A stretch of 54,258 bases of DNA from Nemertoderma westbladi. Taxonomy: Eukaryota; Animalia; Xenacoelomorpha. The notes under the pieces are model-generated. The model saw only the letters and a program-made list of their open reading frames with translations. It ran no database searches and had not been told where the DNA came from. This document shows, piece after piece, positions 505-30,555 of the stretch; position 1 is the stretch's first letter; the number at the start of each line of letters is the position of its first letter. The position numbers and the translations under genes are program-made. Where the stretch lies: NCBI GenBank assembly GCA_032718475.1, contig JAUCBJ010008687.1:1-54258 (forward strand), given 5' to 3'.

Positions 505-2707
505 AATAATAATAATAATAATAAAATTTAATCATTTGTATAGCGCCAACATTACCGATAGTATTCTATGGCGCTAATCAGAGTTAGGTTAGTCAATTTA
601 AATAAAAAGAAAACCGCGTAGAGTACATAATTAAGAAAAGTAAAAACAAAGATTTTTAAAAACGATCGGCTAAAAATGAGTCTATTTTATAGGTGGGTGG
701 GTAAACAGGTGAGTCTTTAGTTTTCCTTTGAATGATGCCGTAGACTGGATATCACGTAGCGAAGCCGGTAGTTTGTTCCACAGCCGGGGCGCGCATACCT
801 CGAACGCCAGCCACCCGAGAGTGTAGCACTGGAACCGTGGTTCGACGAGACTTACTGTGCTACAACTTCTAGTTTGGAGGCGATCGCGACTAACTTTATG
901 GAGCATTTCGATTATATATTTGGGAGCGTGGCCGACCAAGGCCTTGTGCGTCATCAGCAGTATTTTAAATTCTACACGTTTGCGCCCAGGCAGCCAGTGG
1001 AGGGACTTCAACGTCGGCGATATATGGTCGTATTTGTGTACACCTGTAAGCAACCTAGCAGCTGTGTTTTGTACACGTTGGAGTTTATGTAATTGGTAGC
1101 TTGGGACTCCATAGAGAAGGGCGTTACAGTAGTCTATGCGGCTAGTCACGAGAGCATGTATAATTGTTTCTGCGGCCTTAGTGTCGAGATATTTCCGAAT
1201 TGAGCGAATGTTGTGCAGGTAGTAGTATGCGGCACTGCATGTTTTAGATATAAATTTATTCATTCTCATCTCGGAGTCGAACCAGGCTCCAAGGTTTCTG
1301 ACCGATTTAACCGGTTCGATATCAAAGTTTCCAACGCGAATTGAGATTGAGGACAGCTTACTCAATTGAGATTTCGATCCGAGCAAGATAAATTCAGTCT
1401 TGTCGTCGTTTAGCTTGAGCCGATGTTTTAATAACCAGCTGCGCATCTCCGCGATGCAGGCTTCCATGGACTCTATGGCTGCTCTTTCGTTAGACGATGT
1501 TAATGGTTGCAAGGAGCAGTAGACCTGATGGTCATCAGCATAACCGTGGCCAGCCAATGGTAAATGGTGCTCTATTACATCCAAGAGGCCAGCACTGTAG
1601 TTGGGGAAAAGTGTGCATGATAGACATGATCCTTGAGGGAAACCATATTCCAGTAGCTGATCGTCGGATGTGGCCCCTAACGTGGCTACTCGTTGGACTC
1701 GGCCAGATAGGAAGGACCGGAACCATTTGAGACAGGTGCCGCAGAAGATATGAAGGCGATTTCCAAGGACGTTCATCAGTCGAGTGTGATCTACATTATC
1801 GAAAGCGGCGCTGAGGTCAAGTAACACAAGTCAAGTTATTTGTTTGTTATCCATGTTTCGGAGAATATCGGATTGGACTTTGATGAGGGCCGTTTCGGTA
1901 CTATGATGTTTCCTATACGCCGATTGAAATATTGGCAATTGGTAATAGGTGTCAATGTGTGGCTGAACTTGAGCTATTACTGCCCTCTCAGTTATCTTTG
2001 AGATAAAAGCTATGCCACTAACTTGGCGAAAGTTCTTGTTTTTAACAGTTTTAATTGCATCTGTTGACCGATCTGAGGAAGGTTTTTTAGGTATTGGTGC
2101 AATTGTCCCAATTTTCCACAGTGGCGGGACCACTCCAGTCTCCAGTGATTGATTGACCATGGTAGTAATAGGCCGAATGAGAACCGGTAGACAAGACTTC
2201 AATACCTGCGTCGGTAGGGGATCCTGTGGACATTGTTTATTCGGTGCAGTATTGACCAGTTTCGTAACTTCTTCTGCAGACAGAGTGTTTTGCTTAGATA
2301 ATGATTTTATTACATTAAATAGCTTCTTTTGGTCACCTGAGCATGCGCCGATTAATCCACGATAGTATTCCTGGCGATCAGTTGTTAGTTTTTTTTGAGT
2401 ATATGTTTCGAATTTCTTTAAACTTAACTTTATCTTCTATTTTACCAGTTTTACACCACCTTTTTTCTGCTTTACGACGCTGTTGTTTTAGGCGGCGCGC
2501 CTCATGGCTGAACCACTTGTTCCCATCTCGTAGTCTAGTTGCTTTCGATTTTAAAGGGGCGTGTTTATCAATCAGTTTCGAAATTGTAAAATTATAAAGT
2601 TCGGATTTATTTACAATTGATAGATCGTCGAAACTAGGCTGACATAGTACCGATGTTGTTATATCGTGTTTGACATTGTTCAAGTTATTTTTTCCGATAT
2701 TGAACAT
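505..2707 (-). mobile_element. 5'-truncated, decayed L2-clade LINE
   Basis: Minus-strand ORF2 pieces at 2378-2707, 1831-2202 and 682-1827. 3' stem-loop TAGCGCCA(541-548)/TGGCGCTA(569-576). (TTA)n tail at ~505-523. Confidence 0.88.
682..2707 (-). pseudogene. LINE ORF2 reverse transcriptase, broken by stops/frameshifts
   Basis: Motifs QSAYRKHHSTETAL, LLDLSAAFD, GFPQGS, YADD, KLNDDKTE, SRIDYCN, LQRVQNTAARL, SLHWLP, FKGKLKT, typical of L2-group RT and C-terminus. Confidence 0.88.
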
Positions 2708-2889
2708 TGGTTCAACTATACCAACAACTATTCTGGGAATTTTGATCCCTCTGACACATCAAACTACTTACAACAGGCTGCAGATGATGAAGAAAGCTTA
2801 CTAGCAGGAGATAGCTCTCACAGTTTGAATCGTGGTATTCGTTCTAGGGGTGGAAGCAGCTCAGGACGTGGAACTGGACGGGGGTAAGT

Positions 2890-3380
2890 TTCAGTATATA
2901 AGTATTTATTTTGGGGGGAAATGTATTTATTTTGAGGAAAATATGTATATATTTTGGGGGAATATGAATTTATTTTGGGGGATAACGTATTTATTTTGGG
3001 GGATTATGTATTTATTTTGTGGGATTATGTATTTATTTTGGGGGAAAATGTATTTATTTTTGGAAAATTTGTATTTATTTTGGGGGTTTTGTCATTTATC
3101 TTGGGGTAATTTGTCTTTATTTAGGGAGTGTTGTCAGTTATTTTGGTGTGAATAATTGGTTTTGGGGAGCATTTATTTATTTTGGTGTTGAATAATTGTT
3201 TATGGTGTTGAATAATTGTTTTTGGTGTTGAATAATTGTTTTTGGTGTTTGAATAATTTTATTTGGGAGTGACTTTATTTTATTTGGTGTTGAATAATTT
3301 TGTTAGGGGTCACATTATTTAAATTGGCGTAATATAAATTTGTTGGTGAAATTTTCATAGATTTTTGGTATGACTTTAAT
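2890..3380. repeat. Degenerate ~20-21 bp tandem array (TATTTATTTTGGGG / TTGGTGTTGAATAATT), member of a dispersed family
   Basis: Visible periodicity; an inverted relative lies at 10460-10773. Confidence 0.75.
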
Positions 3381-4729
3381 TATTGGTATTGGTATTATTA
3401 TTACTGCACCTCGAGCAATATTCCAGCGATATGTAAAACGAGTACAGAGTAGACCTACACTACGAGGAGAGTAGTGAGTAGCTGAACACTTACGTGAATA
3501 ATACAGAATTAATGACTGACAGATACTGAATTGTCTTTATTGTCTGTAAACAAAAACAATACAATACCTACTATATTCGATTGATTTTTGCATTAGAAAA
3601 GGGACATAACTCCATTTTTTCATGATAAATAATGCTGCTTTTCCTAATATTACAAAATTTCATTGTTTTTGTGTTTATTGTGTAACTTTGCCCTGATTTG
3701 TCAATTTTTTAAAAGAATTCCCTGACCTTTCCAAGAAAAAATGACATTTCCTGACCAACCCCCTCATGTAGACTGTCATAGCATATTCGTTACCTGGGTT
3801 TGTACGGATATTTTAGAGAACAGCTGTTGTTTCCACATTTGATCAAATTTTCGGTCGGTGGTACAACAATGGATGGGGGGGGGGGGGGGGGGGTGGGGTT
3901 AGAGTGATTAGAGTTGTAGTGTCAAGAGTGAAAAAAAAGATCAAAAGTGATAATTTGTTAAAAGCAGTTTATTAAAAATAATATAAAAAATATTTTAATA
4001 TAGTGTTAGTAATTTAGTGATAAATTAATTAAAATTAGCGATTCAAGCTGTGTGGAATTCAGTATGAAAAAAATATAATATTTAAAAAATAATAGATAAA
4101 TAATCATCTCCAGCCTTGACATCCAACTAACTCTACGGTGGCTGATAAAAACATGCAAAGTAATAATTAGTGGTATTATATTAATTACTAACTAACTAAT
4201 GAGGTTGAGGTTTTTTTTTATTAAAGCTAATAAATACACAATAATTAAACGGTACCGGTATACAAATCATCATATACAAATCAATGATTAGATTCAAAGA
4301 TTATTGTTCAAAATCGGAATTATTATAAAATAAATAAAATATACATTAAATACAAACTGACAAAGACTGTTGAAAATAGTTACATACAATATGTGTATGC
4401 TTTGAGGATATCCTCATGAGGTTTAACCTCGTTTCCATGATTCAAAGTTAATATTTATAGCTTTGGTATCATAGTTTGTTGTTAAGTTAAGTACAAAAAT
4501 TAAAATTATTATGATATATTATAAAAATATTAGGTAGGAATTTTAGTTCATTTAAGAAAATAAAAAGGAAGGATAGTTATTGGTAGGACATTTATGTACA
4601 GTTGATTTAAAAATATTAAAAAAAGGAGTGTGGCGCATAATAATTGGTAGTCCGAAATAAAATAATGTTAAATATTTGTGAAATCTAAATAGATATTATC
4701 CGTACAACTCCTGATTAGTTTAGATGTTT

Positions 4730-6172
4730 TTACTTCTTGGTACAGCCGAGAACCGTTGCAAATGGATTCAGCAGCTCGATAACGAGTTCCACATCGGCAG
4801 TACGAAGTCCCAAAGCAACAACGAAACCGTCGACGCCATCGCGAATAATGATACCAATACCGTCGACGCCTCTTCTAACGGGAGCAAACCCTGAGTAGAC
4901 AGAGCGACCACTACCGAAATCTATAACGTGTTCGAATTGGGACCAGTTACTTATGGCGTAGGTTGACAGGGAGAGAACAGATCGAGCGAACGGGTTCACA
5001 AGCCAATCCTTCCTCTCCACGGACTGGAGATACGAGATCTGATTCCTAATGCGTTCCACGTCCATCTCCACCACGGAGTTCCTCACCAGTTCCGCGCATT
5101 CCAACACGATCTTGGATGCGTCCCTCGCCTCGTCTAGGATGACGTCACGTCGTACTGAGGACCACGCATACAACGACGAGTTCCCGAAGAACCCATCGGG
5201 GAGCGGTAGGTCCAGCCGTCCGGACCTCCGTACCGACACCGCGATGGTAAGAAACAAATCTTCCGGGAACTTCTCCCCGGCCCGGAAGCCTCTTGCCCGC
5301 GATACCGCCCACCACACAGCCCCGCAAATGACGTCATTGTTACTTAGCGACGATTTCGGGCCTCGCAGTTGGGCGATGGCAGAACGTGAGAAACGTAACC
5401 GAAGGGTTTCCATGGAGGGAGCGAGGAAAGATAGATTGGCGATGAGTTTACCACGTCGTCTGATTAACCAGGAGATTAAAGTGCGGATATAACTGGGAAA
5501 CTTGGAAGGAGAATATAGTAAGGAGGGGGAGGGAGATTCATTAGCCCTAAACGGAGGGAAAGCGAATTCCCCTATTGAGTTTATAGAGATGTCCTGGGGT
5601 GATTCGCCTCGACAGAAGGAGGCAAAATTCCGAGCGAGAGAGAAGAAAGTACTAGCGTCAGCGATGCAATGGTGCAGGGCCATGGTGAGTGCACAGCCTC
5701 CATCGGAGAGCGTCGTGTGCTGAACGACAAACACCGGTGACGGATGGAGTACGCCGGTCCAACTGTCTGGATACGCGTCGAATATCTCCGCTACGGGGAG
5801 CAGCGAGGGGGGTAGGTCATCGGGGGAGGTTGTCGTTGTAAAGGAGAGGGACTCAGCCGATATTAGGAGGGCAGTCTCTGTGAAGGGGGAGCCTCCGCGC
5901 GACCATCGGCCGTCTGGGTGTCTACGGTACTCCCTGGCCAATACGGCGGCGTATAGCGGGGTTGCTAGGAGACGCTGTAACCCCGATCGAAGGGATGAGA
6001 ATGTGGGAGCCCCTCGGGAGTCGAACACCCAGAGGAAGCTGATGTAGCAGGGCGGGACTGTGTGGTCCAGTACGGTTAGGAATGTGTCTGTGAGGGGTCC
6101 GTACACAGCCGTGGTAGACAATGCCTCCTCGGTCGGTAGTCGTATCCGTTCAAGTTCATAAACATCATTCAT
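4730..6172 (-). CDS. BAHD/transferase-family (CoA-dependent) acyltransferase, intronless, 480 aa
   Basis: Open ATG-TAA frame. Catalytic HxxxD (HHCIAD, 5657-5674), DFGWG-like DFGSG (4907-4921), AVSVRR..LDLPLPDGFFGNS and LSNNDVICGAVW motifs with BAHD-like spacing and length. Confidence 0.85.
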   Translation of the reverse strand: MNDVYELERIRLPTEEALSTTAVYGPLTDTFLTVLDHTVPPCYISFLWVFDSRGAPTFSSLRSGLQRLLATPLYAAVLAREYRRHPDGRWSRGGSPFTETALLISAESLSFTTTTSPDDLPPSLLPVAEIFDAYPDSWTGVLHPSPVFVVQHTTLSDGGCALTMALHHCIADASTFFSLARNFASFCRGESPQDISINSIGEFAFPPFRANESPSPSLLYSPSKFPSYIRTLISWLIRRRGKLIANLSFLAPSMETLRLRFSRSAIAQLRGPKSSLSNNDVICGAVWWAVSRARGFRAGEKFPEDLFLTIAVSVRRSGRLDLPLPDGFFGNSSLYAWSSVRRDVILDEARDASKIVLECAELVRNSVVEMDVERIRNQISYLQSVERKDWLVNPFARSVLSLSTYAISNWSQFEHVIDFGSGRSVYSGFAPVRRGVDGIGIIIRDGVDGFVVALGLRTADVELVIELLNPFATVLGCTKK

Positions 6173-7322
6173 TGTAATTCTGTAATTTGTAACCGTCGTG
6201 GGTAAGGCTGTAAGGTGGCCTTGATGGGTAAACTTCTTATATTAGTAGAGCAGGATCAGTTAGCCTATGGTTTTCTGTGACAGATTTAATTAAGTTCTGG
6301 CCCTGTCTTCACTACCGAAACTTAAGTATGCCCGTATGTAGCCAAAAAGGTTACTGTATGTTTACCATTTTTTTTAATCTTGTATTTCAAACTTGAACTT
6401 ATAAAAGTATTGCAGTATTGACATTCAGTTGTTTAATTTTGTTAGGCGTACATCAGCACATTAAATAATTAGAGGATAAGTAATGCTTTAACGGTAAACT
6501 ATGAATTTAAGTTTAGGAGGATAGAAAGTTCCTTCAGAATGAATTTTCGTCAATATTTTGAAATTGCCGTCACAATCTAACACTCACTGATTTACAGTGT
6601 AGCCAATTAAAAGTAAATATTCTAATTTGATTGCACAACTGACAACATACTCGGCGTTACCAACTTAGAAGTTAAATATTAATAAAACAGAACGATCAAT
6701 TTTTCGCATTATTTGATTGTTGTTAAATTCAAAAGCAAGATATAATTAGAGATAGATAGGGCGAGGTAATAACTTTTGCTATTATTAAGATAAATATTGT
6801 TCTTATGGGAAAATGACGAAAAATCGAAGAGCGGACAGTGTTATTCACATGGAAGGCAAAATAGCTTTATTGATAACTTTTGGAGAAATAATTATACAAA
6901 AAAATTTAAATATTGTAAATCCGACAGCATCCCCATCCCCACCCCCTCCATGTTGTATAAAACAGGCTAGGAGGAAACTTGATGCAAATCACGTCTATTT
7001 TCCCATGGGGAGGGATGAATTTTGATAGAGTAGAAGCAGCTAATTAATGTATAAAATTGTATCTGACTGTGAAGAAAACAAAATAAACTTTAATTATTGT
7101 CATTCATTACCTATTTGCTATTTATTGCAATGTATAAAATTGAGTACCATAAACCTGACTTAAAAGAAAACAGAATAAACTGTAATTATTATAATTACCT
7201 ATATTTATTACGATGTATAAAAATGAGTACCGGTACCGCATACTTCTAACTTATGTCTAACTTATGTTCAGAAAGTACAGTGCAATGCCTCTCGAATACG
7301 GGTGTGATTCCCTGATTAAACG

Positions 7323-7910
7323 TCAATTCTTTAAAAATGAAGGATCGTTTTGCAATTTATTCAGAACCAATTCGTACCACTTTTGAACCTCTTTTAAAGG
7401 CACAAATAACTCCGATGGTTGTGGGGTCATTTGGCTTTGTGTTATTGCGAAGGAGGCGATATAATTAAACAGCTGATTGGCTAATTTCTGGGGCAAGTCT
7501 ATATTCATTGTTGTGTTAGCTGCATTCGGAGTTAATTGCGAGATTTCAGCATCCGATTTTATTTGTATTCCCAGTTGAGTCGGCGTAGTGGAAGTGAAAG
7601 CGTCGCCGAAACCGTGAGGTGTAGCCACAGCGCGGGATTGTAAGGAATCCAGTCCGGACAGTTTAAACACGGCGCTGGGTTTCGCGTTGCTAAGGAACCC
7701 GAGATACAGCCATGCCTGTTGGCCGTCGTTCCTAGGGAAACCGAAGTAAACGGCCCCTGCGAAACCGGTCGGAAAAGGGACCGCGCCGGTGAGGAAGACT
7801 ACGAGATGGTGGATAGAAGTGGCGTCCGTCACGGTAGTGAGGAAGCTGGTTTCGTCGATTTGTTGGAAATCGGTTTGAACTAGACGCCCTGATGCTACAC
7901 AGGCGAACAT
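7323..7910 (-). CDS. HIKESHI: Protein Hikeshi / OPI10 homolog (Hsp70 nuclear import carrier), intronless, 195 aa
   Basis: MFACVASGRLVQTDF...IHHLVVFLTGAVPFPTGFAGAVYF...W.YLGFLSNAKPSAVFKLSGL...FNYIASFA.TQSQMTPQPSE.FVP...VQKWY...DPSF matches Hikeshi as I recall it. The true start is the ATG at 7910. Confidence 0.95.
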   Translation of the reverse strand: MFACVASGRLVQTDFQQIDETSFLTTVTDATSIHHLVVFLTGAVPFPTGFAGAVYFGFPRNDGQQAWLYLGFLSNAKPSAVFKLSGLDSLQSRAVATPHGFGDAFTSTTPTQLGIQIKSDAEISQLTPNAANTTMNIDLPQKLANQLFNYIASFAITQSQMTPQPSELFVPLKEVQKWYELVLNKLQNDPSFLKN

Positions 7911-8047: not shown

Positions 8048-8471
8048 GGTAATGTAGCGTTAGGTCTAAATCGGTATACCTTAGGTCCCGTAGCTTTAGG
8101 TCCTGGCGCGTTAGGTCCTGTAGCATTAGGTCCTGTAGCTTTAGGTCCTGGCGCATTAGCTCATGTAACATTAGGCAGGTCCTATCTGCCTATAGCATAT
8201 ACTGATATATCTGACTGTTGATTATTCTCTATTAATCTATTCTACAATATCCCTGACTCTCGTTTATTGTTTTGGTTCCTTTCAAGTTCAACTCGCCTCT
8301 GTGCTCTGTAACCTGTTCCTTCACTAACCTGCCTGGTTTTGGAGGCAGACTGGACCTACTGACCTAATGGCACGGCCCTAACGCTTCCAGGACCTAACAC
8401 CACGGAATTAATGCTACCAGGACCTAACGCTACCAAGGACCTATAGCGCCAGGACCTAACGCACCATAATC
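8048..8471. mobile_element. MULE/foldback-type MITE
   Basis: 9-bp TSD CTATTCCGA (8039-8047, 8472-8480). Imperfect G...C-ended TIRs built from tandem TTAGGTCC / GGACCTAA subrepeats. Confidence 0.75.
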
Positions 8472-10459: not shown

Positions 10460-10773
10460 GATTAAAGTCATCCCAAAATTGATGAAAATTTCACCAAATA
10501 AAATTATTCAAACACCAAAACAAATTTTTCAACACCAAAAAGAATTATTCAACACCAAAACAAATTATTCAATACCAAAATAAATAAATGCTCTCCAAAA
10601 CCAATTATTAGCACCAAAATATATGACAAAACCCCCAAAATAATTACAAATTTTCCCAGAACAAATATATTTTCGCCCAAAACAAATACATTTTCGCCCA
10701 AAATAAATACATTTTCCCCCAAAACAAATACATTTTTGCCCAAAATAAATACATATTCCCCCCAAATAAATAC
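10460..10773. repeat. Inverted relative of the 2890-3380 array
   Basis: ATTAAAGTCATCCCAAAATTGATGAAAATTTCACCAA is approximately the reverse complement of 3343-3380, and is followed by CCAAAATAAATACA units. Confidence 0.75.
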
Positions 10774-10824
10774 TACTGCAGCAATAAGCCTAGCACTTCC
10801 TGGAATTTAAGTAAAAACTTCGAG

Positions 10825-15896: not shown

Positions 15897-18800
15897 TTAC
15901 GTTATGGAGTCCCTAGATGTTTGAAGGATTAGGGAGGTGGTCGTGGGAAGAGAATCTTGCCTTCCACAGTTTCCGGAGAGTCCTCCATTCCCTTCCGGTA
16001 AACACAAACGACCGACTGGGTGATTGAGTCGCTGCATCCCGAATACAATTCCAGGTTTCCTCTTCGTCCTGGAATAGTGACGATAGAAACATCGCTCAAA
16101 GTATATGACGGCGTCACAAAGCCGATTCCAGGAGCTATAGTGGTCCGTCGTTCTCTGCAGGAGAGGTGAGAGTCCCTGCGAGACGTCTGATGTTCCAGAG
16201 CTCCAATCGCTCTCTCTGATCTTCATGAAGGATCCACTCGCGGAGGGGAGGCCCAGATCCACGGCGTCGTCCCTGGCAACATGTAATACCGACAGATCTA
16301 TCCCGGGTTCAAATAACTCCGATCCACCCGTCCGGGTTTCAGGTTCGACTTTCTCCGCTCCCTTGGCTGGTCTAATCTCAGTCGGAGTAAGATGGGGAGG
16401 CCATTCATTCTCCTTACTCAGGAAGTCGGGTTCACCTAACCGGTCTATAGTATCTGTCAGTTCTTGAGGAGTTGCTCCTCTGGAAGCGATGTCCGTTGGA
16501 TTAAACTTCTTGGGGCAATATCTCCATTGATCTACATTGGAGCTAAGATTGTCATTATCTGAGGAGTGTGGTGTTCCCTCAGTTGGGTCGTCTCCCTCAC
16601 TAGTATCATCTTCCCATTCACTCACCTGGCAGACGCGATCTTGAAGCAGTCTTTCCCTGAGCGTTCTACGGGAAGGTCCAGTAAGGTACCAACCTACTCT
16701 AGTTCTTACCGCATAGGTCTGTAGTGGCTGCGGTTGAGCAGGCCGTTTCTCTAATGTCTCCAGCGCCTCATGCGCGTTTTGGCCGATGAGTATTTGCACT
16801 CCAGGATAATCAGTCTGGAATCGAGGTATGTTAAGATGTTGGATGCTCTCATCCTCGTCCCAATTATAAAGGTCTGCTTGAGTAGTAGCGAAGTTCTTTA
16901 TAGCCACCATTTTCACTGACCTTATGCTGTGTTCTCCTAGTTCGTCCTGGGGGGTGGACAACGCTCCTACATAATAATCAGCTGTTATTGTAGATTTCCA
17001 AACTTGCATAATGCCTGACATGTTGAGCTTAGTTTGGAGCTTGGGTTGTCCAGCAAATATATCTTCGGCTAACTCTTTATCGATGAATGTTCCTGTGCTG
17101 CCGGAGTCCAGGAGGGCGTTCACTACATAACTCCTCTTAGGTCCGTGAACCCTTACTTGCACCACAGGAAACTCTCGGATCCCTACATTGGAAGATGTCT
17201 CTTTCCAAGGTGGTTGTCGTTCAGAAGTAGTTAGAGTAAAGTCGTTCTCTGTATCTTTTTCATATGTGAGTGCTCGATACACTGCGGTATTTATCATGTA
17301 ACAGGATTCGTTTTCGTCGGAGAACTCGTCTGTATAGAATCCTTCCATCTCAGATTGATCAGTGTCGTTCACATCACTGAATTGGACATGTAGCTCGGAA
17401 TCACTTACCTGATTCGGACTATTTCGATCGAATTCAGCGTGCAACAAGATATGATGTTTCGCACCACACTTTGCACACCTTATGTCAGAGAAACAGGTTC
17501 GCCGTTGGTGTCCTTGTCTGAGGCAATTATAACATAACCGCTTATCCCACATGACTTCGCGTCTCTCCGTTAATGATTTCTTTAGAAATTCATCACACCT
17601 ATTCAAATAGTGGGTCCCGTCGCACAGCGCACATTTTGGTTTGATGTTACTTACCTTATTTTGAGTCACATTGTGTACACTTGCCCTTTCTTCGGGCTTT
17701 CTCACCTGAATTCTCTTGGGAGACGTAGGAGGAGTTTTTCTTACCTGTTCCCTCCTGTCATTTGTTCGAGACTTGAATTTACTTACCTGCTCTTTAGGCA
17801 TTTTATTCACGTGATAAGATCTATCCGTGTCCTTCCCGCTATCTTCTCCTTGAGAAGTCTGGCTTTCGCCGTCATCGGTATAACATACTGGTGTTATTTT
17901 TCTCCTAGAGACGGGTTTTTCACTTACCTTGTTTTCCGGTGTTTTCTCCCTAGACAGTTTCAGGAGCTGTAATTTCACTTCTCCATCCAGGAATGACATG
18001 AGATCAGCCATGGTAGGGTCTCGCTGTTGTTGTTCCATCATATATAACACTTTCTTATCCCAGCGTGTACCTACTCCACCTTTAGGTAAAGTAGAAGCCA
18101 CTGCTCTAATAACCATAGTGTTCTGATACTCATGAGACTTACCTAGCCAATCTAATTGTCTGCAGATCTCCTGGATCTCATCGGAAAACTCGATAATTCC
18201 GCTACTAATAAACTTTCGGGGCGCTACTAACTTTGCATACAAGTACCCAGCGATATTATTCCTATTACCATACCTGATGTTTAGTGTATCCCAAACTTGT
18301 CTTAATCCGTCTGGATGTCCAATAAACTTTAACGCCATTAACTTGGGAGATCCTTCCAAGCACTCGATGAGGTATCTAAGTTTTTCTCCATTAGATAGTA
18401 CAGAGTTCTGTATGTTATCTTTATAATATTCATTAAAAGGTAACCATTTCATCTCATCTCCATTGAACTTGACGATCTCTCCAACCTTTACCGCTTGCCG
18501 GGCTTCGGTTCTAGCCATTTGACGCGTAAAACTTTCTTGGGCCATCGTGCTATTTAATATCGAGTTATCGGTATATAAATTTCTCGGATTATGATCCGGT
18601 CTATAGGGAATATCACTATCAACAGGTATATAATTACCCTTAATAGGGTTCACTATAGGAGTTTCTACTTCGCTAGCAGTATAGATGCGTGTAGGCTCCA
18701 CACCTTCCGCATGAGATACTTCAGACCTAACGGGTTGACACATTGTTACAGAGGGTGGTGGTATACCCTTTTTTAAGTTTACTAATTTATCGCGTTCTAA

Positions 18801-20906
18801 CGCGATACTTTGCTGCACTTCTTGCAACTCTAACTTACTTTCCCTCACCGTTCCTTTTAAATGTTGGACAGTCCCTTCCAACTCTCGGACCTGTTGGGAA
18901 GAGCGTTTCCGATTCTCCTTCATCTCTTCTAGGAGAATATCCATCCCCCGCCGTCTCTCGTCTACCCAATCAACCGCCGAAACGGGATCCGCCAACGTCG
19001 TAGCGGGCAGACGAGGGACAACGGGCGACAAATTTGGAATATTTCGCTCGGGGTCCAGGACCTGAACTGTCTCCTGGGCAGTTCTACGGGGCACAGGTAG
19101 CTTAGTGCTATGCAGAGGGAATTTATAGGTAGCTTCAGGGAGCCCGGGTGTGTCTATTACCGAAGGGGTGATTTCAAGAACAGGCCTACTTATTTCAGGC
19201 TCATCTACTATAGTAGGGAGTCTTTCTATTGTAATTATTTGGTCTGTGGGTTCTGTACTCTCTAAGTTGGTGTTATTTAGTTGCCTTCTAACAGCTGGAG
19301 GCAAATCAGGCAATTTCTGACGGTGGAATGTTCTTTTACGTCTGCTTAGGCGGGATCGATTTCCTCCGCCTTCAGCGTCGGTGGTATCGCCTTCCTCAGA
19401 TGATGTATACCCCTGTCTCTTGGGAGTAGATCGACTCATCATCTGCATATTGCTCGCTGTTAACTGTTTATTGAAGTTGTCTTGCTTCTCTTGAAGATTT
19501 TCCAACTCTAGTTGGGTTGCCTCTTCAGATGCCCTCCGTTCTGCTTCTGCCACTGCCTCTGCTGTTTTTCTTTCGGCTTCTGCCGCTGCCACTGCTGCTG
19601 CCGCTTTCCTTTCCGCTTCGGCCTCTGCCACTGCCACTGCTGCCTTTCTTTCCGCTTCTGCCTCTGCCACTGCTGCTGCCGCCTTTCTTTCCGCTTCTGC
19701 CTCTGCCACTGATGCTGCCACTGCCGCTGCCTTTCTATCTTCTATACGTTGTTTCTTTAATTGTTCTTCTTGGTCTCTAGCGATGCGGAGTTGTTCATCG
19801 AATTTAGCTTGGTTCGCCGCTAACCTATCCACATCAATTGCATCCAACACACGCTGGGCTCCTTCACTATTAGGGCTAAGCCCATCTAGTCTTCTCCGCA
19901 ACTCTTCATCACCTACGAAACGCTGATAGTCTGACAGATAGATGTCAATGGCATCCCTCTTATGCGGTTTCTCTGCCGTCGCTTCACTTTCCACTTGGGA
20001 AAAAGTAGCGTCTGTTGATTCTCCATGGGTTGAGCGCTCCTCCAACTGAGCTTTCCACTGAGCTGCTCCTTGAACCTGGCGACTCACCCGTTGAAACCAA
20101 GTCTTTACGGCAACTTGCAACGACGTGTCTTGTTTTCTTTTAGAAGCCTCCTCAAAGGCGGATAAGATTAGCCTAATCCGCAGAACTCTTTCTCTAACTT
20201 GATAAAGCAGCGATCCCTGCTCTTGAGGTCCTTGAGGTTGTTGAAAAAGTTGCTTTTCTATTCGCTCCATAGAGCTGAAGAATCCCTGTGCGTATCCGGC
20301 TGCGGACCTCTTCCACACAGCTGGATCGATGGTTTCCTTGGCTACTCCCATCCGGTGTATGTCTTCCCAGGCAGCTTCTGATAAATCAAACGGGAGTCCG
20401 GGTCCGGGGAAGTTCCATTGCGACTCGACAATAGACTTCAGTTCTTCACTAGTGTATCCCGCGTAACTATCTCTAGTTGTCCGTTGACTTCTCGCCCAAT
20501 CGATCTGGTGTTCTTCCACCGCGATCAATAACCCAGCGAGCACGGCTGCAGGAAGGATGAGAAGGGGATCCGTATAAACCGCATCCGTCATCTCTGCTCC
20601 GCTCTCGGGTGTCAGCTCTACAGTATCCTCACTACTGGAGCTGCTGGGCCGCTGAGGAATAAGTTCTTGACTAACGGGTTGTTGCTGTTCCGCTGCTTCT
20701 TGGTCCCGCTTGACCTGAGCTCGGGTGCCTATGATAGACCTACGATGTTGGACTAGCCTAGGTTCTGTTATTACTACTGGAGGGATGACCTTCCTCACAG
20801 TGGGAGGTGAACTGAACTTACGACCAGACGGTTGTACGTCTCGATCTGAGTTGCAGATAGTTACATCTAATAAACTGTCTGACAGGTTCTGCTTAGTATC
20901 AGACAT
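15897..20906 (-). CDS. BEL/Pao Gag-aspartic protease polyprotein (1669 aa) with in-frame loss of RT, most of RNase H and integrase
   Basis: DUF1759-like capsid region (KFNGDEMKWLPF...EKLRYLIECLEG). Three Zn knuckles (CALCDGTHYLNRC, CYNCLRQGHQRRTC, CAKCGAKHHILLH). Protease ALLDSGST and YAVRTRVGW. After that only vestiges: WRYCPKKFNPTDIASRG, YSSWNRL, HPVGRLCL. Confidence 0.92.
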   Translation of the reverse strand: MSDTKQNLSDSLLDVTICNSDRDVQPSGRKFSSPPTVRKVIPPVVITEPRLVQHRRSIIGTRAQVKRDQEAAEQQQPVSQELIPQRPSSSSSEDTVELTPESGAEMTDAVYTDPLLILPAAVLAGLLIAVEEHQIDWARSQRTTRDSYAGYTSEELKSIVESQWNFPGPGLPFDLSEAAWEDIHRMGVAKETIDPAVWKRSAAGYAQGFFSSMERIEKQLFQQPQGPQEQGSLLYQVRERVLRIRLILSAFEEASKRKQDTSLQVAVKTWFQRVSRQVQGAAQWKAQLEERSTHGESTDATFSQVESEATAEKPHKRDAIDIYLSDYQRFVGDEELRRRLDGLSPNSEGAQRVLDAIDVDRLAANQAKFDEQLRIARDQEEQLKKQRIEDRKAAAVAASVAEAEAERKAAAAVAEAEAERKAAVAVAEAEAERKAAAAVAAAEAERKTAEAVAEAERRASEEATQLELENLQEKQDNFNKQLTASNMQMMSRSTPKRQGYTSSEEGDTTDAEGGGNRSRLSRRKRTFHRQKLPDLPPAVRRQLNNTNLESTEPTDQIITIERLPTIVDEPEISRPVLEITPSVIDTPGLPEATYKFPLHSTKLPVPRRTAQETVQVLDPERNIPNLSPVVPRLPATTLADPVSAVDWVDERRRGMDILLEEMKENRKRSSQQVRELEGTVQHLKGTVRESKLELQEVQQSIALERDKLVNLKKGIPPPSVTMCQPVRSEVSHAEGVEPTRIYTASEVETPIVNPIKGNYIPVDSDIPYRPDHNPRNLYTDNSILNSTMAQESFTRQMARTEARQAVKVGEIVKFNGDEMKWLPFNEYYKDNIQNSVLSNGEKLRYLIECLEGSPKLMALKFIGHPDGLRQVWDTLNIRYGNRNNIAGYLYAKLVAPRKFISSGIIEFSDEIQEICRQLDWLGKSHEYQNTMVIRAVASTLPKGGVGTRWDKKVLYMMEQQQRDPTMADLMSFLDGEVKLQLLKLSREKTPENKVSEKPVSRRKITPVCYTDDGESQTSQGEDSGKDTDRSYHVNKMPKEQVSKFKSRTNDRREQVRKTPPTSPKRIQVRKPEERASVHNVTQNKVSNIKPKCALCDGTHYLNRCDEFLKKSLTERREVMWDKRLCYNCLRQGHQRRTCFSDIRCAKCGAKHHILLHAEFDRNSPNQVSDSELHVQFSDVNDTDQSEMEGFYTDEFSDENESCYMINTAVYRALTYEKDTENDFTLTTSERQPPWKETSSNVGIREFPVVQVRVHGPKRSYVVNALLDSGSTGTFIDKELAEDIFAGQPKLQTKLNMSGIMQVWKSTITADYYVGALSTPQDELGEHSIRSVKMVAIKNFATTQADLYNWDEDESIQHLNIPRFQTDYPGVQILIGQNAHEALETLEKRPAQPQPLQTYAVRTRVGWYLTGPSRRTLRERLLQDRVCQVSEWEDDTSEGDDPTEGTPHSSDNDNLSSNVDQWRYCPKKFNPTDIASRGATPQELTDTIDRLGEPDFLSKENEWPPHLTPTEIRPAKGAEKVEPETRTGGSELFEPGIDLSVLHVARDDAVDLGLPSASGSFMKIRESDWSSGTSDVSQGLSPLLQRTTDHYSSWNRLCDAVIYFERCFYRHYSRTKRKPGIVFGMQRLNHPVGRLCLPEGNGGLSGNCGRQDSLPTTTSLILQTSRDSIT

Positions 20907-28510: not shown

Positions 28511-30555
28511 TTAATCACTTTCAATTTCGTCATTTCCCGCAACTATGATATCATCATTCACGAATTGAGATTCCGACAGTGTTTCGTAATATGCCCCGTT
28601 TGTTTTTTATATAAGACCTTGTTGGCAAATATCAAGTAAATCTTTTTTTTTCTTTAGACTAATCTTACGGGGACCAGTGAAAGCTAGAGACAGAGATGGG
28701 AGATTCTTACCTGCTGCATAAACTTCTTTACCTGTAGCTTTTCCTTTAAAATTTTGCTTTTTCCCCTTTCCTTTACTACGTAGATTGCATCTGTCTCCAA
28801 CTTTAGTTTCAGCTTTTGGTTTAATTTCAACAACTTTAAATGGTTCATCCTCAGCACTAAAGCTGTATTTAAACTGAATGATGTTAGTATTTGTTTTCTG
28901 AAACCTCATCCATTTGACCTTAAGCCAGTTAACATACTGTTTTTTCTGTTTTTTACAGCTCCGTTTATTGATCATTTTACCAATTTGGTCACCGACCTGT
29001 TCACCATTACATTCACCAATACGTCCACCCCTTTCTTCAACGACCTGTTCACCACTCCGTCCACCAATACATCCACCCCTTTGTTCAACGACCTGTTTAC
29101 CACACCGTCCACCAATACATCCACCCCTTTGTTCAACGACCTGTTCACCAATCCGTCCACCAATACATCCACCCCTTTGTTCAACGACCTGTTCATCACT
29201 CCGTCCACCAATAAGTCCACCCCTTTCTTCACCGACCTGTTCAAAACTCCGTCCACCAATACATCCACCCCTTTCTTCAACGACCTGTTCACCACTCCGT
29301 CCACCAATACATCCACCCCTTTGTTCAACGACCTGTTCATCACTCCGTCCACCAATACATCCACCCCTTTGTTCAACGACCTGTTCACCACTCCGTCCAC
29401 CAATACATCCACCCCTTTGTTCAACGACCTGTTTACCACACCGTCCACCAATACATCCACCCCTTTCTTCAACGACCTGTTCACCACTCCGTCCACCAAT
29501 ACATCCACCCCTTTGTTCAACGACCTGTTCACCACTCCGTCCACCAATACATCCACCCCTTTGTTCAACGACCTGTTTACCACTCCGTCCACCAATACAT
29601 CCACCACTTTGTTCAACGACCTGTTTACCACTCCGTCCACCAATACATCCACCCCTTTGTTCAACGACCTGTTCATCACTCCGTCCACCAATAAGTCACC
29701 CCTTTCTTCACCGACCTGTTCAAAACTCCGTCCACCAATACATCCACCCCTTTCTTCAACGACCTGTTCACCACTCCGTCCACCAATACATCCACCCCTT
29801 TGTTCAACGACCTGTTCATCACTCCGTCCACCAATAAGTCTACCCCTTTCTTCACCGACCTGTTCAAAACTCCGTCCACCAATACATCCACCCCTTTGTT
29901 CAACGACCTGTTCACAACTCCGTCCACCAATAAGTCTACCCTTTTCTTCAACGACCTGTTCACCACTCCGTCCACCAATACATCCACCCCTTTGTTCAAC
30001 GACCTGTTCACCACTCCGTCCACCAATAAGTCTACCCCTTTCTTCACCGACCTGTTCACCACTCCGTCCACCAATACATCCACCCCTTTGTTCAACGACC
30101 TGTTCACCACTCCGTCCACCAATAAGTCTACCCCTTTCTTCACCGACCTGTTCAAAACTCCGTTCACCAATACATCCACCCCTTTCTTCAATGACCTGTT
30201 CACCACTCCGTCCACCAATACATCCACCCCTTTCTTCAACGACCTGTTCACCACTACATTCACCTATTCGTTCACACCTTCGTTCACCATTCACCTGTCC
30301 ACCACTCCCTACACCAACCTCTACACTGATCTGTTTTTCGACTGTATCATTGACACTAATGTCACTTATTACACGACGGTTAACAATAAGAACCTTACAT
30401 AGTTTCTTGAAATCGTAGATATCACTTTGTTTTAACAAAGTGATCTTATATGGATTATTTCGCCTCGCTCCTAGAATTATATTTGTCCAATCATTAGGAA
30501 CTTCTACTACCTGATTAGATTTAGCATACTCTATTGCGGAGTGCATGCTGTCCCC
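28511..30555 (-). pseudogene. Sola1-type transposase C-terminal half, frameshifted, with tandem-repeat expansion
   Basis: GDSMHSAIE...VPNDW...ARRNNPYKI..L.QSDIYDFK; then VNWLKVKWMRF...KKKKDLLDIC..GLI; after a frameshift AYYETL...stop at 28511. Confidence 0.75.
28990..30262. repeat. 48-bp minisatellite, ~26 units
   Basis: Unit CCACCAATACATCCACCCCTTTGTTCAACGACCTGTTCACCACTCCGT; no spacers. Confidence 0.95.

What the first reader, a model, noticed from the sequence alone, without database searches (positions are those of the whole stretch)
4730..6172. Intact BAHD-type acyltransferase in an animal genome: candidate horizontal gene transfer
Seen: intronless 480-aa ORF with HxxxD and DFGSG, visibly more GC-rich than its flanks, embedded among animal TEs and 1.15 kb from Hikeshi. 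Known: the BAHD/Tri101-like transferase family is typical of plants, fungi and some microbes. It is generally absent from animals except by transfer, for example whitefly phenolic-glucoside malonyltransferases and bdelloid rotifers. Inference: a horizontally acquired enzyme for detoxification or small-molecule biosynthesis. GC alone is weak evidence because the Hikeshi CDS is also GC-elevated.
Basis: partly seen in the sequence, partly recalled or inferred. Interest (0 to 1): 0.8.

Follow-up and report, generated by a model that had tools for sequence, protein, structure and literature searches.

The report
Protist-type BAHD acyltransferase in an animal
An invertebrate genome carries an intact, intron-free gene for a plant-style acyl-transferring enzyme (BAHD family) beside an ordinary animal gene, and family trees place it not with the plant or fungal versions tested but in an unnamed group that includes single-celled eukaryotes, so it was likely picked up from such a microbe and is predicted to attach acyl groups to small molecules.

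Summary
The 480-aa single-exon ORF (4730-6172, minus strand) passes Pfam PF02458 (E 7e-18). It has a BAHD fold (Z 28, against 18.8 or less for non-BAHD HxxxD folds) and keeps His168, Asp172, Trp410 and DFGSG. Contigs from two other studies cover the ORF; one runs from the ORF to 131 nt short of the Hikeshi stop, so a contaminant junction is unlikely.

The protein falls in an unnamed 13-row clade (100/100). AU tests reject grouping with plant HCT-like, Tri101-like or Basidiobolus proteins. The only named clade member comes from the ichthyosporean Abeoforma whisleri, and another (L001) is a GC-rich gene with three introns. None of 20 looked-up hits is named as animal, but most are unnamed.

Best reading (about 0.6): a predicted cytosolic acyl-CoA-dependent O/N-acyltransferase, likely acquired from a microbial eukaryote. 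Main rival (0.25): an ancient holozoan gene lost in most animals. Substrate and expression are untested. Whitefly BAHDs are the known precedent; the scan noted a rotifer BAHD on other DNA, but not this gene.

The parts
4730..6172 (-). Single-exon ORF, 480 aa, BAHD/Transferase (PF02458) acyltransferase
5657..5671 (-). HCIAD (HxxxD) motif, residues 168-172; His168 is the predicted general base
   Evidence: aligns with the His and Asp of plant HCT-like P0085; His 11 of 11 and Asp 10 of 10 among clade rows with a letter there
4943..4945 (-). Trp410, counterpart of the HCT tryptophan (AtHCT Trp371) that stabilises the tetrahedral intermediate
   Evidence: 12 of 12 clade rows with a letter there; role from PMC13119808 passages
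4907..4921 (-). DFGSG, variant of DFGWG, residues 418-422
   Evidence: within the clade only the closest relative (P0017, DFGCG) also matches the pattern
4217..4222 (-). AATAAA about 510 nt downstream of the stop: candidate polyadenylation signal (untested)
6173..7322 (.). AT-rich 1.15-kb spacer joining the ORF to Hikeshi
   Evidence: X2 contig 5752-7192 runs from inside the ORF through the spacer; X4 contig 7163-7499 runs from the spacer into the Hikeshi ORF
7323..7910 (-). Intact single-exon Hikeshi ORF, 195 aa: animal-type neighbour that anchors the locus to the host
   Evidence: 43-46% to the top five hits, whose named members are arthropod; E 1e-46 to solved Hikeshi 3WVZ
15897..20906 (-). 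BEL/Pao-type retrotransposon gag-protease ORF; context supporting an animal host
   Evidence: BEL/Pao described as metazoan in the PMC3118150 abstract

Best explanation
The ORF is an intact BAHD-family gene that sits in the animal's own DNA next to Hikeshi; it is predicted to encode a soluble acyl-CoA-dependent acyltransferase and was likely acquired horizontally from a single-celled eukaryote rather than from a plant or fungus. Shown: intact frame, family, predicted fold, motifs, presence in three studies, continuity with the flanks, placement in an unnamed clade apart from the plant and fungal rows tested. Inferred mechanism, by homology with HCT: an acyl-CoA and a small alcohol or amine enter the channel between the two domains; His168 deprotonates the acceptor, which attacks the thioester; Trp410 stabilises the tetrahedral intermediate; CoA leaves. 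Inferred origin: one old insertion of an intron-free copy (from an mRNA or an intron-poor donor) beside Hikeshi, since kept open and now diverged to about 54% or less from any known relative. Inferred role: acylating a dietary, microbial or own small molecule (detoxification or chemical defence); the substrate is not known.
For: Family: PF02458 65 bits against cutoff 22.7, Condensation only 13 bits; 22 of 22 PDB sequence matches at E<=1 are plant acyltransferases of the BAHD type. Fold: AF2 pLDDT 74, pTM 0.78; Foldseek top hits HCTs at E about 1e-22, TM 0.65-0.69; VIA-align ranks 1-15 are BAHD/TRI101 at Z 22-28, then PapA5 and NRPS C domains at Z 18.8 or less. Soluble: highest 19-residue hydropathy 1.61, N-terminal maximum 0.21. 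Host DNA: 3 studies of organism A hold the stretch, one possibly the source. In an independent sample X2, contigs 4249-5750 and 5752-7192 bridge both ends of the ORF into the AT-rich flanks, and X4 holds one contig 4070-6275 across the whole ORF. Constraint: X2 differs at 8-9 of 1,442 ORF sites against 21-22 of 1,501 flank sites, Fisher p 0.016-0.043; none of the 8 listed ORF changes is a stop. Origin: clade support SH 99 (11 rows), 100/99 (12 rows), 100/100 (13 rows). AU rejects union with plant HCT-like rows (p 6e-5), Basidiobolus P0010 (2e-34) and Tri101-like rows (5e-120). Clade member L001 has three GT-AG introns and GC3 0.79, so it is eukaryotic; spliced, it is 34% identical, 242 bits. 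Of 20 hits looked up, including all 9 above 99 bits, 0 carry an animal name. Fourfold-site GC 0.61 against 0.40-0.46 for the 4 other window ORFs.
Against: The only named clade member is a holozoan, and a sister relation to it is not rejected (p 0.084), which fits vertical descent too. Relations inside the clade are unstable: the window protein was sister to P0007 (96/82) and unresolved. The listed ORF differences are 5 missense and 3 silent, pN/pS 0.58, not significantly below 1 (p 0.34). 7 gap letters in the X2 contig and 3 in the X4 contig were not placed by the cut tables, so a frameshift in those haplotypes is not excluded. No single independent contig spans both ORFs. The search library shows one representative per 50% cluster, which can hide named members.
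Confidence: 0.6

Rival explanations
1. The clade is an old holozoan gene family, inherited vertically, kept in ichthyosporeans and a few animal lineages and lost in most others; no transfer is needed.
For: Abeoforma whisleri (Ichthyosporea, recalled as a close relative of animals) is the only named clade member; a sister relation to it is not rejected (p 0.084); P0001-P0005 may be animal (AU p 0.129); no relative above about 54% identity is known.
Against: It needs losses in nearly all annotated animals and other holozoans: only 7 of 1.84 billion representatives reach E<=1e-30, 0 of 20 looked-up hits are named as animal, and the profile search returned only the Abeoforma protein, though from 7,997 word-picked candidates. 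The nearest relative (54% over 262 columns) has a GC-rich amino-acid make-up (GARP/FYMINK 1.9-4.8), like L001 (3.45) and above the window protein (1.49).
Confidence: 0.25
2. The gene came from a plant or a fungus, as in whitefly or bdelloid rotifers.
For: The best solved-structure matches are plant HCT/SHT enzymes; the best named fungal hit is Basidiobolus, E 2e-17.
Against: The best plant-like and fungal rows identified score under 80 bits, against 100-240 for the full-length clade members; AU rejects all three unions tested. Caveat: the rows were picked after earlier trees were seen, and only 1 of 4 plant-like and 1 of 3 Tri101-like rows were labelled by search.
Confidence: 0.03
3. The ORF is contaminant or symbiont DNA mis-joined into the assembly.
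For: It is intronless and GC-rich against its flanks; no single independent contig spans both ORFs.
Against: It is held in 3 studies; X2 contigs bridge both ORF ends and reach 7192, inside the X4 contig that carries the 3' end of Hikeshi; X2 and X4 share 7 of the 8 listed ORF differences, as alleles would.
Confidence: 0.04
4. The gene is real and foreign but is not an acyltransferase in use: either a recent neutral passenger, or a BAHD-fold protein with another chemistry (as COSY, EPS1 or CER2 in plants; their activities recalled).
For: pN/pS is not significantly below 1; non-acylating BAHD-fold proteins match at Z 25.6-26.2, close to the top; expression is not shown.
Against: His, Asp and Trp are kept in every clade row that covers them; the ORF is less variable than its flanks; divergence from all relatives argues against a recent arrival.
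Confidence: 0.08

Closest known systems
Plant BAHD acyltransferases, HCT/SHT type (PF02458; PDB 5KJS, 6DD2, 6LPV)
   Same: Two-domain fold (TM 0.65-0.69, Z 28), HxxxD, a DFGWG-like motif and the Trp of the oxyanion site.
   Different: About 18-25% identity; DFGSG instead of DFGWG; counterpart of the arginine handle uncertain; separate clade, union rejected; sits in an animal with no sign of a phenylpropanoid context in the window.
Whitefly plant-derived BAHDs (BtPMaT1/2 and related clusters; PMC9599486, passages read)
   Same: A BAHD acyltransferase in an animal genome, explained by horizontal transfer.
   Different: The whitefly genes have plant best hits (40-58% for the three acyltransferase clusters in that paper's Table 1) and are multi-copy; this gene groups away from plants. 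The whitefly sequences themselves were not compared here.
Fungal TRI101 trichothecene 3-O-acetyltransferase and relatives (PDB 2RKT, 2ZBA)
   Same: Same fold (Z 25.9), HxxxD; a detoxifying acetyltransferase (role recalled).
   Different: 17-18% identity; union with Tri101-like rows rejected.
Abeoforma whisleri protein EP00121_P007781 (P0006), uncharacterised
   Same: Same clade (100/100), PF02458 positive, His/Asp/Asn-Trp kept.
   Different: 28% identity, no DFG motif, AT-rich make-up; no function known.

Membership tests
BAHD acyltransferase superfamily (PF02458) | Pfam PF02458 above the gathering cutoff over most of the length | tested here: met
   65 bits against 22.7, residues 31-447
BAHD acyltransferase superfamily (PF02458) | HxxxD with the catalytic His in register | tested here: met
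   HCIAD 168-172 aligns with the HCT motif
BAHD acyltransferase superfamily (PF02458) | C-terminal DFGWG motif | tested here: met
   DFGSG in register, 4 of 5 letters; variants at this position are common among the 150 hits
BAHD acyltransferase superfamily (PF02458) | Two-domain CAT-like fold closer to BAHDs than to NRPS condensation or PapA5-type folds | tested here: met
   On a predicted model: Z 22-28 for BAHDs, 18.8 or less for others
BAHD acyltransferase superfamily (PF02458) | Acyl-CoA-dependent acyl transfer | not testable with these tools
   Needs an enzyme assay
Plant HCT/HQT subfamily | Groups with plant HCTs in a tree | tested here: not met
   AU p 5.8e-5
Plant HCT/HQT subfamily | Arginine handle (AtHCT Arg356) that binds the shikimate carboxylate | tested here: inconclusive
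   HMMER aligns Asn393 with it, but Arg397 is near, the MAFFT register differs, and the loop has pLDDT under 50; role from PMC6203249 and PMC13119808 passages
Fungal TRI101-like transferases | Groups with Tri101-like proteins in a tree | tested here: not met
   AU p 5e-120 for 3 rows, 1 of them labelled by PDB search
Horizontally acquired animal gene | Physical linkage to host genes in independent data | tested here: met
   By tiling of X2 and X4 contigs, not by one spanning contig
Horizontally acquired animal gene | Nested within an identified non-animal donor clade | tested here: inconclusive
   Clade is strong but mostly unnamed and internally unresolved
Horizontally acquired animal gene | Absent from most other animals | tested here: inconclusive
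   0 of 20 looked-up hits named as animal, 18 unnamed
Horizontally acquired animal gene | Purifying selection | tested here: inconclusive
   ORF less variable than flanks (p 0.016-0.043) but pN/pS 0.58, p 0.34

The most novel reading that the evidence does not exclude
An unnamed branch of BAHD acyltransferases circulates among microbial eukaryotes and has entered animals by a third route, independent of plants and fungi. If P0001-P0005 are also animal genes, a hidden family of animal-encoded BAHD enzymes exists that could make acylated natural products now credited to symbionts or diet.
Probability: 0.25. Interest if true: 0.75.

Novelty: new variant of a known kind. Interest (0 to 1): 0.5.

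Why it matters
BAHD enzymes are treated as plant (and fungal) specialities; one review read here calls them plant-specific (PMC13119808, passage). The animal case in the papers I read comes from plants (whitefly, PMC9599486). This gene points to an undescribed BAHD clade in microbial eukaryotes and gives a single-exon, easily expressed animal enzyme to assay. Either outcome is informative: protist-to-animal transfer of a specialised-metabolism enzyme, or an old holozoan family that most animals lost. The gain is limited by the unknown substrate and the unnamed relatives.

Tried and rejected
No whole genome is held, so paralogues and Hikeshi copy number could not be checked genome-wide; inside the window there is no second copy of the ORF. 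Word-indexed protein search with the ORF: 0 hits among 7,997 candidates. The 3 window proteins looked up are not in the collection.

Pattern scans found no relative in metagenome contigs, prokaryote genomes or viral contigs; tblastn of plasmids gave no match. These scans find close relatives only. Viral fold library: best TM 0.32, no real match, so a giant-virus carrier has no support. The protein atlas gave no result.

Expression: no RNA holder listed. X4's contigs end about 100 nt upstream and 660 nt downstream of the ORF and none was laid on 6356-6928, as a transcript assembly would look. X4 is not on record as RNA and a hole in contig cover proves nothing, so this was not counted. Runs of organisms B and C (X6, X7), X5 and X8 laid nothing on the ORF at 80% likeness; this is no proof of absence.

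Composite transposon: two inverted copies of a minisatellite-bearing repeat (2901-3380, 10461-10774) bracket both genes, but I saw no target-site duplication by eye and the family looks high-copy; rejected as likely chance.

My first reading that the four pieces of the closest relative (P0066, P0039, P0059, P0017) are exons was dropped: the P0066 break is a frameshift (0 of 100 shuffles reach the score); the other two breaks tested are uninformative (40 and 73 of 100). Codon-usage correlations were uninformative, and the L001 row was read out of frame and is void.

Literature: 'BAHD' with 'Abeoforma' gave 0 papers; searches listed no report of this clade or gene (listings only). The supplement of the metazoan HGT compendium PMC13342648 could not be read and may list further animal PF02458 genes.

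Full report
Observation. The ORF is as described: 4730-6172 on the minus strand, 480 aa, no intron needed, chance probability about 4e-9 per frame. HCIAD (168-172) and DFGSG (418-422) are the only matches to the two motifs. GC is 0.548 against 0.28 and 0.32 in the flanks; Hikeshi's CDS is 0.478. At fourfold sites the ORF has 0.61 (160 sites), Hikeshi 0.46 (71) and three transposon ORFs 0.40-0.46; Fisher p 0.044 against Hikeshi and 4e-6 against the pooled transposon ORFs. This is a weak hint of a GC-richer source.

Family and fold. Pfam PF02458 scores 65 bits (cutoff 22.7) over residues 31-447; Condensation scores 13. All 22 PDB sequence matches at E<=1 are plant acyltransferases of the BAHD type. 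An AlphaFold model from a 9-row alignment (pLDDT 74, pTM 0.78) matches HCTs best in Foldseek. In the Foldseek-independent search of 48,161 chains, ranks 1-15 are BAHD or TRI101 (Z 22-28), followed by PapA5 and NRPS condensation domains at Z 18.8 or less.

Is it host DNA? Five runs from 3 studies of organism A hold the stretch or a part of it; one may be the source. In X2, an independent sample, contig 4249-5750 crosses the stop into the downstream flank, and contig 5752-7192 crosses the start and runs through the spacer to 131 nt from the Hikeshi stop. X4, from a third study, holds one contig across the whole ORF (4070-6275) and one from 7163 into Hikeshi. No single independent contig spans both ORFs, so linkage is by tiling. 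The neighbours are animal-type: Hikeshi 43-46% to its top five hits, whose named members are arthropod, a BEL/Pao-type ORF (metazoan by the abstract of PMC3118150) and LINE fragments. Earlier notes on this genome describe animal genes, and one suggests a marine acoel worm; I did not test that.

Constraint. X2 differs from the window at 8-9 of 1,442 ORF sites and 21-22 of 1,501 flank sites (one of 30 differences was not listed; Fisher p 0.016-0.043). The 8 listed ORF changes are 3 silent and 5 missense, none a stop; X4 shares 7. pN/pS is 0.58, not significantly below 1 (p 0.34). Seven gap letters in X2 and three in X4 could not be placed because the tables were cut. Function is favoured but not shown.

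Relatives. A full HMMER scan of 1.84 billion representatives gave 299 hits at E<=1e-3, 38 at 1e-10 and 7 at 1e-30; 150 were listed. I looked up 20 of the 150, including all 9 above 99 bits. Two carry an organism name: P0006, Abeoforma whisleri (E 2e-35), and P0010, Basidiobolus meristosporus (E 2e-17). None is named as animal; 18 are unnamed ENA, NCBI, Logan or JGI proteins. A member of P0007's cluster led to locus L001, a GC-rich gene with three GT-AG introns that splices to 513 aa, 34% identical and 242 bits, so it is a eukaryote's gene. Four pieces that each come from a 5,959-nt ENA contig (likely one contig) are the nearest relative, 54% over 262 columns against 31-40% for the longer clade members on the same columns (columns were chosen from the pieces' own local alignments, which favours them). 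At least one of their breaks is a frameshift.

Trees. FastTree on 120 rows (the window protein, the 115 of 150 hits of 340-560 aa and 4 shorter proteins) gave an 11-row clade at SH 99. IQ-TREE on 37 rows gave 100/99; the mixture model on 30 rows gave 13 rows at 100/100 with the inside unresolved. AU tests on the 30-row set reject union with four plant HCT-like rows (p 6e-5; P0085 labelled), with Basidiobolus (2e-34) and with three Tri101-like rows (5e-120; P0020 labelled). They do not reject union with the seven unnamed AT-rich rows (p 0.129) or with Abeoforma alone (p 0.084). Rows were chosen after earlier trees were seen, and the trees are unrooted.

Origin. A plant or fungal donor is out for the rows tested. 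Two readings remain. Transfer from a microbial eukaryote fits the lack of named animal relatives, the eukaryotic member L001, the GC-rich nearest relative and the raised fourfold GC. Retention from a holozoan ancestor fits Abeoforma and the low identities, but needs very many losses; the same choice is posed for deuterostome novelties in PMC4729200 (passage). I put about 0.6 on the whole best reading and 0.25 on retention. The lack of introns says little, since Hikeshi next door has none either.

Mechanism (inferred). In HCT, His153 deprotonates the acceptor, Trp371 stabilises the tetrahedral intermediate, and Thr369 and Arg356 hold shikimate (PMC13119808 and PMC6203249, passages; motif roles also in PMC13205910, passages). 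The window protein keeps His168, Asp172 and Trp410, each invariant among clade rows that cover it, and has Ser408 at the Thr position. The arginine handle has no clear counterpart. There is no signal peptide or membrane helix by hydropathy. I therefore predict a cytosolic CoA-dependent O- or N-acyltransferase for a small molecule other than shikimate. Detoxifying dietary or microbial compounds, or finishing a defensive metabolite, are the likeliest roles; nothing here distinguishes them.

Novelty. A phylogenomic study of BAHDs sampled plants, algae, two stramenopiles and one cyanobacterium only (PMC11449225, passages). Low HGT is reported for one xenacoelomorph genome, with no mention of acyltransferases in the main text (PMC11521371, passages). 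Searches listed no report of this clade; subscription journals and the compendium's supplement were not seen. The scan had no look-alike by sequence. Verdict: a real gene, a member of a known enzyme superfamily, from an undescribed clade and likely by a different route than the known animal cases. Interest 0.5.

Noticed in passing
window 7323-7910 (-): Hikeshi is intact and single-exon here; whether it is the only copy or a retrocopy could not be checked without the genome.
   Followed up: partly
window 2901-3380 and 10461-10774: Two inverted copies of a repeat built from 21-bp and 20-bp minisatellites, with the same inner boundary, bracket the BAHD and Hikeshi genes; no target-site duplication seen.
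   Followed up: partly
window 8081-8466: Inverted pair of 15-bp tandem arrays (MITE- or foldback-like, deep contig cover) about 170 nt upstream of the Hikeshi ATG.
   Followed up: no
window 2648-2890 (+): A short open frame ending in a Gly/Arg/Ser-rich stretch followed by a consensus splice donor (GTAAGT at 2885); possibly an exon of an unrecognised gene.
   Followed up: no
window 15897-20906 (-): A 1,669-aa BEL/Pao-type gag-protease ORF that appears to run into an integrase-region fragment with no reverse transcriptase match (internally deleted element?), with a 39-bp Ala/Glu repeat.
   Followed up: no
window 28984-30255: A 48-bp tandem array of 26.5 copies, open in several frames on both strands.
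   Followed up: no
L001 71-2666 (+): Three-intron member of the same BAHD clade in a GC-rich eukaryote with a CA microsatellite at the third acceptor; it has no DFG motif.
   Followed up: yes
proteins P0008, P0012, P0021, P0122: A second unnamed BAHD clade (100/100), sister to the window's clade in the unrooted trees, also lacking DFGWG.
   Followed up: no
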